A stretch of 53,296 bases of DNA from a virus (lineage: Duplodnaviria; Caudoviricetes), in the IMG/VR virus record IMGVR_UViG_3300037485_000957, positions 1 through 53,296 of that record; one strand, given 5' to 3'. Of the stretch, positions 4,738 through 29,152 are shown piece by piece (positions within the stretch are counted from its first letter, which is position 1; the number at the start of each line of letters is the position of its first letter). Position numbers and translations under genes: made by a program. The notes beneath the pieces are model-generated. The model made no database searches. It saw nothing but the letters and a program-made list of their open reading frames with translations, and was not told where the DNA came from.

Positions 4738-4930
4738 GTTCTAGTTTCCAGATTTTGAATACGTCACCATTTTGATCTACGACAAGCCAGAACAAGTCGC
4801 ACGTTTGATTGCCGCTCAATAGCGATCCTTGTGGAAATACATTCAACACAAGACACTTCTCCCATATAACCTGACCCTTCTTAAGGCACTCTGCCTCACA
4901 GGGGAAATGTATTTGAGAGAAGTCTATCAT
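4703..4930 (-). CDS. Hypothetical protein
   Basis: 75 aa filling the terminase-portal gap, with a TAAATTTG box (4936-4943, minus) just upstream. Confidence 0.5.
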   Translation of the reverse strand: MIDFSQIHFPCEAECLKKGQVIWEKCLVLNVFPQGSLLSGNQTCDLFWLVVDQNGDVFKIWKLEHVRFGNISNAS

Positions 4931-26766: not shown

Positions 26767-27054
26767 ATGACGAACCTAATCATCTCACCAATCATCTACA
26801 CAAACTATCACCACGCACCAGTGACTACTGAACAAGAGCATACGCTAATTTCTGTGTTCGCTATATTGACTTTCATTTGGATAGTATCCATTATTGTAAG
26901 ATTGATTCAAATGAAAGGGGACTTTAAACGCGCAGTAGCGATTGACACTTGCGACTCGCTAGTATTCTTCACCTCGCATACGTCTATGGTTATTATGTGG
27001 GGAATTGTCTTACTCTTCATCGCTGGTAATTACATTTCTAAACTAATCTTCTAA
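26767..27054 (+). CDS. Membrane protein with two TM segments
   Basis: Two hydrophobic stretches. Confidence 0.6.
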   Translation: MTNLIISPIIYTNYHHAPVTTEQEHTLISVFAILTFIWIVSIIVRLIQMKGDFKRAVAIDTCDSLVFFTSHTSMVIMWGIVLLFIAGNYISKLIF

Positions 27055-27314
27055 TGAAACGACTCCTATTCCTCCTGCTCATAGCAATCTCGCTAACATC
27101 CTGCGAGAAGTCATGCTACCGATTCATCGTCACTAGCAAGACGACAACGTACAACAACTACAACGACAAGACAACCACCTCATACATCACGCAGTGCAAT
27201 CTAACGGCTAGGAAAGCACGTAAGGTGTCAGAGGGTATGACTAACACGGTGCGCACAGGCGTTGGCAAGCAGCTGGTTACGGTGGAAACGACGTGTATGT
27301 ATATGATTAATTGA
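27054..27314 (+). CDS. Putative lipoprotein
   Basis: MKRLLFLLLIAISLTS-C lipobox. Confidence 0.7.
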   Translation: MKRLLFLLLIAISLTSCEKSCYRFIVTSKTTTYNNYNDKTTTSYITQCNLTARKARKVSEGMTNTVRTGVGKQLVTVETTCMYMIN

Positions 27315-27320
27315 TAACAG

Positions 27321-27426
27321 GGTTGGGTGGCGGAAATTGGATAGACGCTAACTCGGAGGTCTAAGATGAAATGTAAGTCAGCGAGCGAGTACTTTCATCA
27401 TGCAGGATCATACCCTGCCCCAACCA
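27321..27426 (+). ncRNA. tRNA-Leu-like RNA C (aberrant anticodon arm, extended variable arm)
   Basis: Perfect GGTTGGG/CCCAACC acceptor, TGGCGGAAATTGGATAGACGC D arm, GCAGG-ATCATAC-CCTGC T arm, A discriminator. Confidence 0.7.
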
Positions 27427-27468
27427 CAAGCACTTCTGGGCGGAGTTATAAAACCCACAACAAATACC

Positions 27469-27771
27469 ATGAACCAAGAAGGATTATTACCAAACCCAAA
27501 TGACCGAGCAGAATTAGGGCAAGAGCAACCACCACTAGATCACGTCCCAGGGCTAACTAGAGGGGAAGCGAAAGAATACAGACCATCTAATTCAGAAGTA
27601 CTTCGTGAGTATGAGATCAAAATATCATTCCTCAATAGAGGGTGTATTGTGAACGTGGGCTGTAAGTCTATTGCTTTTGAATCAGTAACCTCAGCGATGA
27701 AGGAAATCAACGAGTATGTAAATGCCCCTTTTGAGACTCAGAAGAAATGGAGAGCGGTGTTAGATAGCTAG
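27469..27771 (+). CDS. Hypothetical protein between the two tRNA-like RNAs
   Basis: Likely start MNQEGLLP; the longer track start at 27400 lies inside the RNA. Confidence 0.6.
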   Translation: MNQEGLLPNPNDRAELGQEQPPLDHVPGLTRGEAKEYRPSNSEVLREYEIKISFLNRGCIVNVGCKSIAFESVTSAMKEINEYVNAPFETQKKWRAVLDS

Positions 27772-27778
27772 AATAAAT

Positions 27779-27865
27779 GAAGGGGTGGCGGAACTGGTAG
27801 ACGCTATACTTAAGCAGTTGAAGCTGGGAAATTCAACAATGCAGGATCATACCCTGCCCCCTTCA
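27779..27865 (+). ncRNA. tRNA-Leu-like RNA D (collapsed anticodon stem)
   Basis: Perfect GAAGGGG/CCCCTTC acceptor, TGGCGGAACTGGTAGACGC D arm, T arm identical to RNA C, GTTGAA/TTCAAC variable arm, CTTAAGC pseudo-anticodon loop. Confidence 0.7.
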
Positions 27866-27887
27866 CAAACATTAAATAACGAACATC

Positions 27888-28331
27888 ATGAGCAACTACA
27901 GAGAATACGACAACGCACCGAATATGAAGCAGAATATCGGAAGAAGGTTTGAGTTTATAGATATTGGGAATAAAAGCAAGGAATACACTTTGCATTACGA
28001 TGTTCAAGACGGTTATTATGGAGTCAATGAAAAGAGTAAAGTCTTTTTCGTAATGGACGGTTACGGCATTGCTGTTATACACAGTAATAACACATTCACT
28101 TGGATTGAGCCACCCCTCGCCACCGCCAGCGAGGTATCGCACCCACATTACTACGGAGGCGAGGATAACGTCTACGAGGCGATTAAAGTCATCCAAGCAC
28201 ACGATCTGAACTTCTGCCTCGGTAATGCTATCAAGTACGTCCTACGGGCAGGTAAGAAGGAATCCGACACACGAATCAAAGACCTTCAGAAAGCGATTGA
28301 ATATTTACAGTTTGAAATTGAGAAAGGATGA
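27888..28331 (+). CDS. DUF3310-domain protein
   Basis: VSHPHYY...EAIKVI...FCLGNAIKYVLRAGKK...DLQKAIEYL. Confidence 0.8.
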   Translation: MSNYREYDNAPNMKQNIGRRFEFIDIGNKSKEYTLHYDVQDGYYGVNEKSKVFFVMDGYGIAVIHSNNTFTWIEPPLATASEVSHPHYYGGEDNVYEAIKVIQAHDLNFCLGNAIKYVLRAGKKESDTRIKDLQKAIEYLQFEIEKG

Positions 28332-29152
28332 AAAACATACACGTATTGCCAACGGAGAAATGCACTCGGTTATACTTTTCTAATTATGGCAAAGAATTTA
28401 ATTTAGCAAGTCGTCCTGCTACACTTTATCACACAGGTCAACACATCTACGTCACTTCATCAGAAGAGATTAAAGTAGGAGATTGGTTTTACTTATATGA
28501 TGCGGATATTATCGCCAAGTACGTGAGTGTAAAACCTGTGGGAGAAAGTAAAAAAATCATCCTAACGACAGACCAAGACTTAATTGCTGATGGTGTACAA
28601 GCTATTGATGATGAGTTTCTGCAATGGTTTGTTAAGAATCCAAGTTGTGAGGATGTTAAGGTAGATGACTGGTTAGATAATGCGGGATGTATTGCTTGGG
28701 GATTGTCTGGTAGATACCAAATAATCATTCCAACCGAAGAGCCTAAAAGAAAAATAGATTCTTGCAAGTATTTTAATGAAGAGATAGGATGCAATCAAAT
28801 TGATTGTAAATGTGAAAAAGAAGAACCTAAACAGGATTATAAAAAGCTGTCTGAAGAATTTACAGAAGCCTTAAAAAGCATTCCTGATGATGTATTTCTT
28901 GAATACACTAAACCTAAAAAAGAAACGATTGAAGAAGCAACTGATAGAGTTAGAGAAGAATATCCATTTTGGTTTGAGGATAATTCTTTTGGTTTAGGTG
29001 CTGCATGGCAAGAAGGAAGGATGTATAGCGAGGAGGAGGTGTTGCAAATAGTAGATAATTACAGACATCAGTTTGAATTATACAGGAATATTCAAGTATT
29101 GCCTGATATGTTCTTTGAGTGGTTTGATAAAACAAGAAAACAGAAATCATGA
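28328..29152 (+). CDS. Hypothetical modular phage protein
   Basis: MKNIHVLPTEK, KKIILTTDQDLIADGVQAIDDEFLQWFVKNPSCE, ETIEEA and RMYSEEEV segments. Confidence 0.75.
   Translation: MKNIHVLPTEKCTRLYFSNYGKEFNLASRPATLYHTGQHIYVTSSEEIKVGDWFYLYDADIIAKYVSVKPVGESKKIILTTDQDLIADGVQAIDDEFLQWFVKNPSCEDVKVDDWLDNAGCIAWGLSGRYQIIIPTEEPKRKIDSCKYFNEEIGCNQIDCKCEKEEPKQDYKKLSEEFTEALKSIPDDVFLEYTKPKKETIEEATDRVREEYPFWFEDNSFGLGAAWQEGRMYSEEEVLQIVDNYRHQFELYRNIQVLPDMFFEWFDKTRKQKS

What the first reader, a model, noticed from the sequence alone, without database searches (positions are those of the whole stretch)
27321..27865. Pair of tRNA-Leu mimics with a swapped T-loop and no functional anticodon arm
Seen: both RNAs have perfect but different 7-bp acceptor stems, a Leu-type D arm, an A discriminator followed by CA, and an identical T arm with loop ATCATAC. 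This places A at 54 and U at 58, the reverse of the near-universal U54-A58 pair. The anticodon region cannot form a 5-bp stem with a 7-nt loop in either RNA, while a long variable stem is kept (GATGAAA/TTTCATC and GTTGAA/TTCAAC). Known: LeuRS generally relies on A73 and tRNA shape rather than the anticodon. Inference: fully paired yet different acceptor stems argue against random decay. These may be decoys for tRNA-targeting defence or for synthetases, or RNase P/Z processing signals that release the ORF between them.
Basis: partly seen in the sequence, partly recalled or inferred. Interest (0 to 1): 0.72.

Follow-up and report, generated by a model that had tools for sequence, protein, structure and literature searches.

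The report
Anticodon-less leucine-tRNA-shaped phage RNAs
Two small genes in an uncultured phage make RNAs shaped like the top half of a leucine tRNA, but with no codon-reading arm and a rare swapped base pair in the elbow loop; they belong to a large, barely described phage RNA family whose job is still unknown.

Summary
RNA1 (27321-27427) and RNA2 (27779-27866) each have a perfect 7-bp acceptor stem, and the two stems differ. Both have a Leu-type D arm, A73 followed by CA, and the same T arm GCAGG-ATCATAC-CCTGC (A54/U58). Neither has an anticodon arm.

The pair is not a one-off.
- RNA2's insert is 34/36 identical to the inserts of two of these canonical-frame elements, although acceptor stem, T stem and T loop differ. 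All 63 pair cells still pair, and 7 pairs changed on both sides.
- The swapped T loop is a recurrent, co-varying variant in otherwise normal phage tRNAs (57 of 339 tRNAs examined, 44 of them picked by my pattern).

Best reading: these are non-decoding tRNA-Leu-framed carrier RNAs. Host tRNA enzymes probably excise them. LeuRS can probably charge them, because it does not need the anticodon arm. The insert is probably the working part, and the swapped elbow may escape T-loop-directed enzymes. None of these functional steps has been tested.

It is a new variant of a poorly known kind; phage T5 RNA1 is the nearest described example.

The parts
27321..27427 (+). RNA1: a tRNA-Leu-framed, anticodon-less RNA gene. 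Acceptor 27321-27327/27419-27425, D arm 27330-27348, 15-nt linker 27350-27364, hairpin 27365-27399, T arm 27402-27418, A73 at 27426.
   Evidence: Sequence and MFE fold. ARAGORN and Rfam do not call it. A 627-nt metagenome contig bridges 27102-27740, with all 10 listed indels inside 27336-27386. A relative's ORF keeps the 23 codons that cover the T arm and the 3' acceptor strand identical.
27779..27866 (+). RNA2: a tRNA-Leu-framed, anticodon-less RNA gene. Acceptor 27779-27785/27858-27864, D arm 27788-27804, 11-nt linker 27806-27816, hairpin 27817-27837, T arm 27841-27857, A73 at 27865.
   Evidence: Sequence and MFE fold. ARAGORN calls it tRNA-Leu(aag) with a 3/5-pair anticodon stem. The insert is 34/36 identical to L293 and L241. 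Alignment A1 shows 100% pairing and 7 double-sided changes.
27402..27418 (+). Swapped T arm of RNA1, GCAGG-ATCATAC-CCTGC (A54/U58).
   Evidence: Exact repeat within the window. The same 17-mer occurs in 38 viral loci, 18 of them in a tRNA-like context by my reading.
27841..27857 (+). Swapped T arm of RNA2, identical to that of RNA1.
27469..27771 (+). Conserved 100-aa ORF of unknown function lying between the two RNAs. It starts 42 nt after RNA1 ends, and its stop codon lies 7 nt before RNA2.
   Evidence: 227 homologues at E<=0.001. No Pfam or PHROG family. Metagenome contigs cover it with no listed indels. Homologues sit next to canonical-frame scaffold RNAs in L234 and L194.

Best explanation
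RNA1 and RNA2 are genes for non-decoding, leucine-tRNA-framed carrier RNAs. This is a large family seen so far only in viral and metagenome contigs. Its members keep the acceptor stem, A73, the Leu-type D arm and the T arm of a class II tRNA-Leu, and carry a variable insert where the anticodon arm, and usually the variable arm, would be.

Shown here:
- The frame is under selection for pairing.
- The insert of RNA2 is conserved between otherwise unrelated phage contigs while its frame differs.
- No usable anticodon arm exists.

Inferred:
- The RNAs are transcribed with the + strand block of small genes (about 18.5-31.3 kb).
- RNase P cuts them out at the 5' end, and the 3' tRNA-trimming and CCA-adding enzymes finish the 3' end.
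- They fold into an L shape through G18G19 with U55C56 and accumulate as stable RNAs of about 90-110 nt.
- They carry every known bacterial leucine identity element, so host LeuRS probably charges them.
- The insert, displayed where the anticodon arm would sit, is the specificity part. It most likely binds or titrates a host factor.
- As a by-product, excision trims the mRNA of the 100-aa ORF between them.

This phage carries a rare frame variant with new, fully compensated acceptor stems and a T loop with 54/58 swapped. The swap is a co-varying alternative to U54-A58 that recurs in phage tRNAs. It removes U54, so it may protect the RNA from enzymes that need U54. Examples are T-loop-cutting Schlafen-type nucleases and the m5U54 methyltransferase.
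For: Family:
- 115 elements in 107 loci have a clear frame. The 5' acceptor strand is AGTCAGG in 106/115, the 3' strand CCTGACT in 88/115, and the T arm ACAGG-TTCGAAT-CCTGT in 58/115.
- There are 101 distinct inserts in 87 clusters, 26-196 nt long, median 60.
- ARAGORN of the 115, with unrelated 'anticodons'.

Membership of RNA2:
- Its insert matches L293 and L241 at 34/36.
- The three differ in 5 acceptor pairs and 2 T-stem pairs, all compensated, with 63/63 cells paired. Only 1 of 500 shuffles reached the observed pairing, and slid controls pair 29-54%.
- Outside the RNA, the window and L293 share only one stretch, 83% nt and 72% aa. L241 shares nothing else.

Non-decoding:
- The ARAGORN 'anticodon' is AAG in RNA2 and L293 but ATG in L241.

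Relatives of this phage:
- A contig bridging RNA1 has its 10 listed indels only inside the insert and D loop.
- P0003, 86% identical in the ORF, has an identical 23-residue extension that corresponds to the T arm plus the 3' acceptor strand.

Leucine identity:
- A73, U8, A14, A15 with U48, G18G19 and U55C56 are all present.
- LeuRS needs A73 and the D/T core, and the anticodon arm is dispensable for charging (PMC2377443, passages).

T loop:
- Of 339 ARAGORN tRNAs in loci L001-L163, 54/58 is T/A in 273 and A/T in 57. My pattern picked 44 of the 57; the other 13 were not picked. Every other combination occurs 3 times or fewer.
- A bacterial Schlafen nuclease cuts 5' of U55, and single U54 or U55 mutations abolish cutting (PMC13462974, passages).
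Against: - No expression, processing, CCA addition or charging data exist for these RNAs.
- An A58G change in the T loop impairs leucylation in Aquifex (PMC2377443), so the swapped loop could equally weaken charging.
- In phage tRNA arrays, usually only one member, at most about three of the tRNAs, carries the swap. That is not what general hardening against a T-loop nuclease predicts.
- No function of any insert is known. Inserts are only moderately more structured than shuffles: mean z -1.09, 41 of 87 below -1, and RNA1's insert at -0.24.
- RNA1's insert has no homologue among the loci fetched.
- The closest relatives of the downstream DUF3310 gene in viral contigs have no tRNA-like element upstream.
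Confidence: 0.65

Rival explanations
1. Decoys. The RNAs soak up a host tRNA-targeting defence nuclease, or LeuRS itself, through their tRNA-Leu body. On this view the insert is irrelevant filler.
For: The intact tRNA-Leu upper body and identity elements are present. tRNA-directed defence nucleases exist, including one that cuts the T loop (PMC13462974).
Against: The insert is not filler. RNA2's insert is conserved 34/36 across contigs whose frames differ. Inserts also fall into recurring families shared between contigs. A decoy for a T-loop nuclease should keep the canonical U54-U55 target, but these two have lost U54.
Confidence: 0.14
2. Pure processing signals (tRNA punctuation). Their only role is to recruit RNase P and RNase Z to cut the polycistronic transcript and release or stabilise the mRNA of the 100-aa ORF between them.
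For: The ORF is flanked tightly: RNA1 ends 42 nt before its start, and RNA2 begins 7 nt after its stop. Homologues of the ORF lie next to canonical-frame elements in L234 and L194, 2 of 107 loci.
Against: RNase P needs only the acceptor/T minihelix and the elbow. That would not explain the strict Leu-type D arm, A73, or the conserved inserts. In addition, 105 of 107 family loci show no such ORF, and the ORF family has 227 members, most found without reference to any such RNA.
Confidence: 0.1
3. Decaying pseudogenes of a former phage tRNA-Leu, or leftovers of recombination at a tRNA-Leu integration site.
For: The anticodon arm is lost, and the linker length of 11-15 nt is close to the 17 nt of an anticodon arm.
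Against: Decay would hit all stems, yet the acceptor, D, hairpin and T stems are fully paired in both RNAs. Changed pairs are compensated. The insert and the T arm are conserved in relatives more strongly than the neighbouring coding sequence. In total, 115 elements keep the same frame.
Confidence: 0.04
4. Genuine decoding tRNAs with an odd anticodon arm, with RNA2 as tRNA-Leu(AAG) or (UAA).
For: ARAGORN calls RNA2 tRNA-Leu(aag). The linker holds CUUAAGC, which looks like a Leu(UAA) anticodon loop.
Against: - The proposed stem has 3 of 5 pairs and competes with a perfect 6-bp hairpin.
- The homologue L241 changes the middle 'anticodon' base, so it is called His(atg).
- RNA1 has no candidate arm at all.
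- RF00005 gives no hit even at E<=10.
Confidence: 0.02

Closest known systems
Canonical-frame phage tRNA-Leu-framed scaffold RNAs. This is an unnamed family (loci L175-L294 here) that was also noted earlier in this scan.
   Same: They share the Leu-type D arm TGGCGGAAnTGGTAGACGC, A73 followed by CA or CT, a 5-bp T stem with a 7-nt loop, an insert in place of the anticodon arm, and a viral-contig source. RNA2 shares its insert with L293 and L241 at 34/36.
   Different: The window RNAs have other acceptor stems (GGTTGGG and GAAGGGG, against AGTCAGG in 106/115) and the swapped T loop ATCATAC. None of the 115 canonical-frame elements has that loop. Canonical-frame homologues score 38-39 bits with RF00005, whereas the window RNAs get no hit.
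Phage T5 RNA1, annotated as misc_RNA 'RNA1' at AY692264.1 30504-30647, in the T5 tRNA region.
   Same: It is a phage-encoded RNA with a 6-7-bp end helix, a class II type D arm (UGCCGGAAUUGGUAGACGG), a T arm (GAAGG-UUCAACU-CCUUC) and a long structured insert instead of an anticodon arm.
   Different: T5 RNA1 has a canonical T loop, a closing helix on its insert, and sits inside a dense tRNA array. No sequence similarity was detected: a canonical-frame element found no match in 50,697 phage records. That T5 RNA1 is a stable RNA of unknown function is recalled, not shown by any search.
Phage tRNAs with a swapped A54/U58 T loop.
   Same: They have the same loop A-U-C-R-U-N-N with U55 and C56 kept and a G53-C61 closing pair. 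The same 17-nt T arm also occurs in a tRNA-Asn (L008) and a tRNA-Met (L010).
   Different: Those are otherwise normal cloverleaf tRNAs with anticodon arms and mostly an encoded CCA. The window RNAs cannot decode.
Bacterial class II tRNA-Leu (Rfam RF00005).
   Same: The acceptor stem, A73, D arm sequence, A15-U48, G18G19 and 5-bp T stem are shared.
   Different: The window RNAs have no anticodon arm, have A54/U58 instead of U54/A58, encode no CCA, and score below the RF00005 threshold.
Eukaryotic initiator tRNA and tRNA-Ala(AGC) with A54-A58.
   Same: A non-U54 T loop is tolerated in working tRNAs (PMC7566577 and PMC7912444, passages).
   Different: In those tRNAs A58 is kept (A54-A58). Here both partners are exchanged (A54-U58). 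My search found no paper that holds the terms A54-U58, U58-A54, A54-T58 or A54U58.

Membership tests
Decoding tRNA-Leu (Rfam RF00005) | 7-bp acceptor stem with discriminator A73 | tested here: met
   7/7 pairs and A73 in both RNAs.
Decoding tRNA-Leu (Rfam RF00005) | Anticodon arm: 5-bp stem, 7-nt loop with U33 and a Leu anticodon conserved in homologues | tested here: not met
   The MFE folds have no such arm. ARAGORN's stem for RNA2 has 3/5 pairs. The homologue L241 changes the 'anticodon' from AAG to ATG.
Decoding tRNA-Leu (Rfam RF00005) | Score at or above the RF00005 gathering score of 29 bits | tested here: not met
   No hit at gathering score, nor at E<=10 on 27200-28000.
Decoding tRNA-Leu (Rfam RF00005) | T loop with U54 and A58 | tested here: not met
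   The loop is ATCATAC, giving A54 and U58.
Phage tRNA-Leu-framed scaffold RNAs (unnamed) | Leu-type D arm TGGCGGAAnTGGTAGACGC directly after the acceptor stem | tested here: met
   RNA2 matches exactly. RNA1 has a D loop one base longer and GGATAGACGC.
Phage tRNA-Leu-framed scaffold RNAs (unnamed) | Variable insert replaces the anticodon arm while the T arm and acceptor stem stay intact | tested here: met
   By the definition (after GACGC to the T stem), the inserts of RNA1 and RNA2 are 53 and 36 nt. The family range is 26-196 nt.
Phage tRNA-Leu-framed scaffold RNAs (unnamed) | An insert shared with other family members (cassette-like) | tested here: inconclusive
   Met for RNA2 (34/36 with L293 and L241). 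RNA1's insert has no match among the fetched loci and only diverged metagenome relatives.
Phage tRNA-Leu-framed scaffold RNAs (unnamed) | Conserved frame sequence: acceptor AGTCAGG/CCTGACT and T arm ACAGG-TTCGAAT-CCTGT | tested here: not met
   The window RNAs have other, fully paired stems and a swapped loop. They are frame variants.
Phage T5 RNA1-type stable tRNA-like RNAs | Accumulates as a stable processed RNA during infection | not testable with these tools
   The host is unknown and no RNA data exist for this phage.
Swapped-T-loop (A54/U58) phage tRNA class | Loop A54-U55-C56-R57-U58 on a 5-bp stem closed by G53-C61 | tested here: met
tmRNA (RF00023) | Alanine identity pair G3-U70, a tag reading frame, and an Rfam tmRNA hit | tested here: not met
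   Position 3-70 is U-A in RNA1 and A-U in RNA2. Neither Rfam nor ARAGORN reports a tmRNA.

The most novel reading that the evidence does not exclude
Phages run an exchangeable RNA cassette system. A leucine-tRNA frame lets host enzymes excise, CCA-tag and leucylate the RNA, and it displays swappable inserts that act on host factors. In this lineage the frame has been re-coded: new acceptor stems and an A54/U58 elbow. The re-coded RNA, like the swapped-loop tRNAs of other phages, would then escape host enzymes that cut or modify the canonical U54-U55 T loop. That would make the tRNA elbow a second front, beside the anticodon loop, in the phage-host contest over tRNA.
Probability: 0.18. Interest if true: 0.85.

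Novelty: new variant of a known kind. Interest (0 to 1): 0.62.

Why it matters
- Standard tRNA finders either miss these genes or mislabel them. Here ARAGORN calls one of the two as tRNA-Leu(aag), and Rfam calls neither. A whole class of phage small RNAs is therefore hidden in 'intergenic' DNA or in odd tRNA calls.
- This window adds two points to what is known of the family. First, one insert can sit in quite different frames, which points to the insert as the conserved functional part. Second, the frame itself can be re-coded at the nearly universal U54-A58 pair.
- The same swap in many otherwise normal phage tRNAs shows that A54-U58 is a viable alternative elbow pair. This gives a simple testable hypothesis about enzymes that read U54, such as T-loop nucleases and the m5U54 and pseudouridine-55 enzymes.
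- If the RNAs are leucylated, they would be natural examples of charged tRNA bodies used outside decoding.

Tried and rejected
Expression:
- The look-up of sequencing runs listed no RNA holder, so expression could not be examined.

Close relatives:
- The 100-aa ORF found no relative in viral contigs.
- Relatives of the DUF3310 gene (4 loci, 45-92% identity over their matched segments) carry no tRNA-like element upstream.
- The genome search does not draw relatives for a virus record.

More swapped-frame Leu-type elements:
- TGGCGGAA..GGATCATACCC in viral contigs gave 3 hits, none tRNA-like.
- A similar pattern in metagenome contigs gave 3 hits, of which L162 and L163 are real.
- In genome contigs it gave 7 hits, none tRNA-like and about the number expected by chance.
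- GGTAGACGC..GGATCATACCC in viral contigs found only L030 and one chance hit.
- The exact RNA2 hairpin gave 0 viral hits.

Cultured phages:
- The region matched only a hypothetical gene of Synechococcus phage S-CBS2.
- A 32-nt query around the T arm gave 6 partial matches and no exact 17-mer. BLAST is weak at this length.
- A canonical-frame element gave no match.
- The nearest cultured relative of one swapped-loop tRNA-Gly, in Serratia phage Muldoon, has a canonical loop.

Antisense targets:
- No complement of 11 nt or more to either insert exists elsewhere in the window. The 10-mer counts are at chance: 8 against 5.3, and 3 against 4.1.

Shared motif in inserts:
- My impression of a recurrent UAAGUCC motif did not survive a k-mer test on 87 insert clusters.

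Protein link:
- The window ORF and the ORF that surrounds the Glu-type element of L002 share only the heptapeptide encoded by the T arm.

Promoters and terminators:
- The consensus scan gave no more promoter-like sites than shuffles, and none obviously serves the RNAs.

Literature:
- None of these searches returned a paper describing this RNA family or an A54-U58 T loop.
- The October 2026 preprint on bacterial tRNA mimics (abstract and outline read) concerns other families.
- Supplementary files were not consulted.
Full report
**What is there**

The window is a 53,296-base viral record that CheckV estimates as 64% complete. It has 43% G+C. It encodes a terminase-like protein, a DnaB-type helicase and a replication initiator. 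Most other genes have no family.

The two elements lie in a block of small genes on the + strand. The nearest genes are a lipoprotein-like ORF (27054-27314), a 100-aa ORF between the elements (27469-27771), a DUF3310 protein (27888-28331) and a YopX protein.

| Feature | RNA1 | RNA2 |
|---|---|---|
| Acceptor 5' strand | GGTTGGG, 27321-27327 | GAAGGGG, 27779-27785 |
| Acceptor 3' strand | CCCAACC, 27419-27425 | CCCCTTC, 27858-27864 |
| Discriminator | A73 at 27426, then CA | A73 at 27865, then CA |
| D arm | 27330-27348 | 27788-27804 |
| Unpaired linker | 15 nt, 27350-27364 | 11 nt, 27806-27816 |
| Hairpin | 7 bp, 27365-27399 | 6 bp, 27817-27837 |
| T arm | 27402-27418 | 27841-27857 |

- Both RNAs have a tRNA-Leu type D arm with A14, A15 and G18G19.
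- The T arm GCAGG-ATCATAC-CCTGC is identical in both.
- The 17-mer occurs twice in the window, against 0.13 expected with up to 3 mismatches. None of 100 shuffles gave two matches.
- In standard numbering the loop is A54 U55 C56 A57 U58 A59 C60.

**No anticodon arm**

- MFE folds of both RNAs give acceptor stem, D arm, one hairpin and T arm, and leave the linker unpaired.
- ARAGORN finds only RNA2 and calls it tRNA-Leu(aag). The anticodon stem it draws has 3 pairs of 5 and uses one strand of the perfect hairpin.
- Rfam gives no match in the window at gathering scores. It gives no tRNA match even at E<=10 on 27200-28000.
- A homologue of RNA2 (L241) differs in the middle base of that 'anticodon', so ARAGORN calls it tRNA-His(atg). 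A decoding tRNA-Leu would not tolerate that change.

**The swapped T loop is a recurrent class**

The exact 17-mer occurs in 38 viral contig stretches. By my reading of the contexts, 18 of them are tRNA-like:
- a Glu-type family (L002, L007, L019, L023, L026, L029; and L014, L024, L031, L038);
- Leu-type elements (L006, L030);
- L005, L015/L027 and L028;
- two normal tRNAs, Asn in L008 and Met in L010.

The other 20 look coding or otherwise not tRNA-like.

A second scan used GGATCATACCC, then 11 N, then CCA. Many of these are ordinary cloverleaf tRNAs with a variety of T stems.

ARAGORN run on loci L001-L163 called 347 tRNAs. Of these, 44 have the loop ATCATAC, one per locus. Their anticodons are Met 8, Gly(tcc) 8, Lys 7, His 5, Asn 3 and ten others, including a normal class II tRNA-Leu(taa).

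Among the 339 tRNAs with a T stem of at least 4 pairs, positions 54/58 read as follows:

| 54/58 | Count |
|---|---|
| T/A | 273 |
| A/T | 57 (44 picked by my pattern, 13 not) |
| any other combination | 3 or fewer each |

So the two positions co-vary. The swapped tRNAs are mostly A15-U48 (37 of 41), against 68 A-T and 74 G-C among canonical-loop tRNAs.

No paper in the library holds 'A54-U58' or its variants. A54-A58 is known in eukaryotic initiator tRNA and in tRNA-Ala (PMC7566577 and PMC7912444, passages).

**The family**

Laying contigs from four lake or freshwater metagenome runs on 26800-28400 gave three results.
- One 627-nt contig bridges RNA1 (27102-27740). All 10 listed indels lie within 27336-27386.
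- Another contig matches 27795-27845 of RNA2 with 2 differences, but continues with a canonical T loop (TTCGATT). It is preceded by the acceptor strand GGTCAGG.
- Several other loose ends show AGTCAGG-TG-GCGGAA.

| Property | Result (call) |
|---|---|
| Elements with a clear frame | 115, in 107 loci (68) |
| 5' acceptor strand AGTCAGG | 106/115 (68) |
| 3' acceptor strand CCTGACT | 88/115 (68) |
| T arm ACAGG-TTCGAAT-CCTGT | 58/115 (68) |
| Tail A then CAA | 46/115 (68) |
| Tail A then CTA | 20/115 (68) |
| Distinct inserts | 101, in 87 clusters (68) |
| Insert length | 26-196 nt, median 60 (68) |
| Called by ARAGORN | 16/115, with scattered 'anticodons' (74, 75) |
| Another ARAGORN tRNA within 500 nt | 38/115 (74) |
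| Loci with no ARAGORN tRNA at all | 50/107 (74) |

- RF00005 matches many canonical-frame elements at 33-41 bits, so they would pass as odd tRNAs.
- The swapped-loop elements of L030, L162 and L163 get no hit.
- Inserts are moderately more structured than shuffles: mean z -1.09, and 15 of 87 below -2. They share no motif.

**RNA2 is a member with a different frame**

- Its insert matches L293 and L241 at 34/36.
- In the three-way alignment, the D arm and insert are nearly identical, while 5 acceptor pairs and 2 T-stem pairs are changed on both sides.
- All 63 pair cells stay paired. Only 1 of 500 shuffles reached the observed values, and slid controls pair 29-54%.
- Outside the RNA, the window and the 13,982-base L293 locus share only one stretch inside the 274-aa ORF (83% nt, 72% aa). 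L241 shares nothing else.
- The RNA is therefore an island of conservation. The insert is what is kept, and the frame can vary.

For RNA1:
- The fetched loci hold no insert homologue.
- A relative's protein (P0003, 86% identical in the ORF) has an N-terminal extension identical over the 23 codons that span RNA1's T arm and 3' acceptor strand.

**How it most likely works**

Shown: the stems are under selection, one insert is conserved, and there is no anticodon arm. The rest is inferred.
- The upper half of a tRNA is what RNase P, the 3' trimming enzymes and the CCA-adding enzyme recognise. This is established knowledge of tRNA maturation.
- The RNAs lie in the sense orientation inside a gene block. 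Excision from the polycistronic transcript into stable small RNAs is therefore the simplest course.
- LeuRS uses A73 and the D/T-loop core. Deleting the whole anticodon stem-loop costs only 2.5-fold in affinity (PMC2377443, passages). Charging with leucine is therefore plausible. However, the same paper reports that an A58G change impairs charging, so the swap could act either way.
- The swap removes U54. A cA4-activated bacterial Schlafen nuclease cuts tRNAs 5' of U55 and is blocked by single U54 or U55 mutations (PMC13462974, passages). Escape from such enzymes is a reasonable but untested reason for the variant.
- One fact counts against this idea: arrays usually hold only one to three swapped tRNAs.

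What the inserts do is unknown. I commit to a protein-binding or titrating role. I found no antisense target in the window, and inserts behave like conserved, exchangeable modules.

**Comparison with what is known**

- Phage T5 carries annotated misc_RNAs in its tRNA region.
- Folded, T5 RNA1 shows an end helix, a class II type D arm, a T arm and a long insert. This is the same architecture in a cultured phage.
- The T4 'species 1 and 2' RNAs and the engineered tRNA scaffolds used to express recombinant RNA are resemblances I recall. No call tested them.

Earlier notes of this scan describe the same Leu-framed family and, separately, swapped T loops in phage and Patescibacteria tRNAs. I reached the family through before reading those notes, and I treat them as leads only.

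**Verdict**

- The pair is a frame variant of a large phage RNA family, and its odd T loop belongs to a wider phage tRNA class.
- Function remains untested.

Noticed in passing
L002 4077-4370; L031 5573-5899 (also L007, L014, L019, L023, L024, L026, L029, L038): A Glu-type tRNA-like element carries the same swapped 17-nt T arm. Its anticodon loop is replaced by UUCG (L002 type) or CATTTGT (L014/L031 type). It lies inside a conserved 97-108-aa ORF (63% identity between L002 and L031), with synonymous-looking changes upstream of it. It sits directly before an NAD-dependent DNA ligase gene.
   Followed up: partly
window 27469-27771: A 100-aa ORF with a strongly conserved C-terminal ~65 residues (EYRPSN...FLNRGCIV..GCKSIAFE...KWR). 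It has 227 homologues at E<=0.001 and no Pfam or PHROG family. Homologues lie beside canonical-frame scaffold RNAs in L234 and L194.
   Followed up: partly
window 27355-27503: RNA1's unpaired linker holds a perfect Shine-Dalgarno-like GGAGGT. Five bases after it, an ATG opens a 45-aa ORF (27366-27503). The start codons of the neighbouring genes that I looked at have no such motif.
   Followed up: no
L005 1667-1826: Inside a 12-tRNA array there is a class II type tRNA-like element (D arm TGCCGGAATTGGTATACGG). It has the same swapped T arm, one C-A mismatch in the acceptor stem, and an insert of about 105 nt.
   Followed up: partly
L015 and L027 (T arm at L015 5656-5672): A class I type tRNA-like element with an encoded CCA and the same swapped T arm. 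An insert of about 56 nt forms a long stem where the anticodon arm should be. ARAGORN does not call it.
   Followed up: no
L030 about 4800-4930: A Leu-type scaffold RNA with the swapped T arm also carries a hairpin insertion inside its D loop (GGATCGGGGTGTCCCCGGTCG). It therefore has two insertion slots.
   Followed up: no
L192 553-939; L006 1939-2077: Rfam tmRNA matches (68.8 bits; 47.7 bits, just at threshold) in viral contigs, within a few hundred bases of scaffold RNAs.
   Followed up: no
loci L041-L157: Swapped-loop tRNAs are mostly A15-U48 (37 of 41), whereas canonical-loop tRNAs in the same loci split 74 G15-C48 to 68 A15-U48. Further swapped loops with G57 (ATCGTnn) occur in 13 tRNAs that my search pattern did not select.
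   Followed up: partly
window 28442-28750 vs L293 4637-4972: The 274-aa ORF downstream of the DUF3310 gene has a homologue (72% aa over the best segment) near the RNA2-like element of L293, but on the other side of it. This suggests a mosaic accessory region.
   Followed up: no
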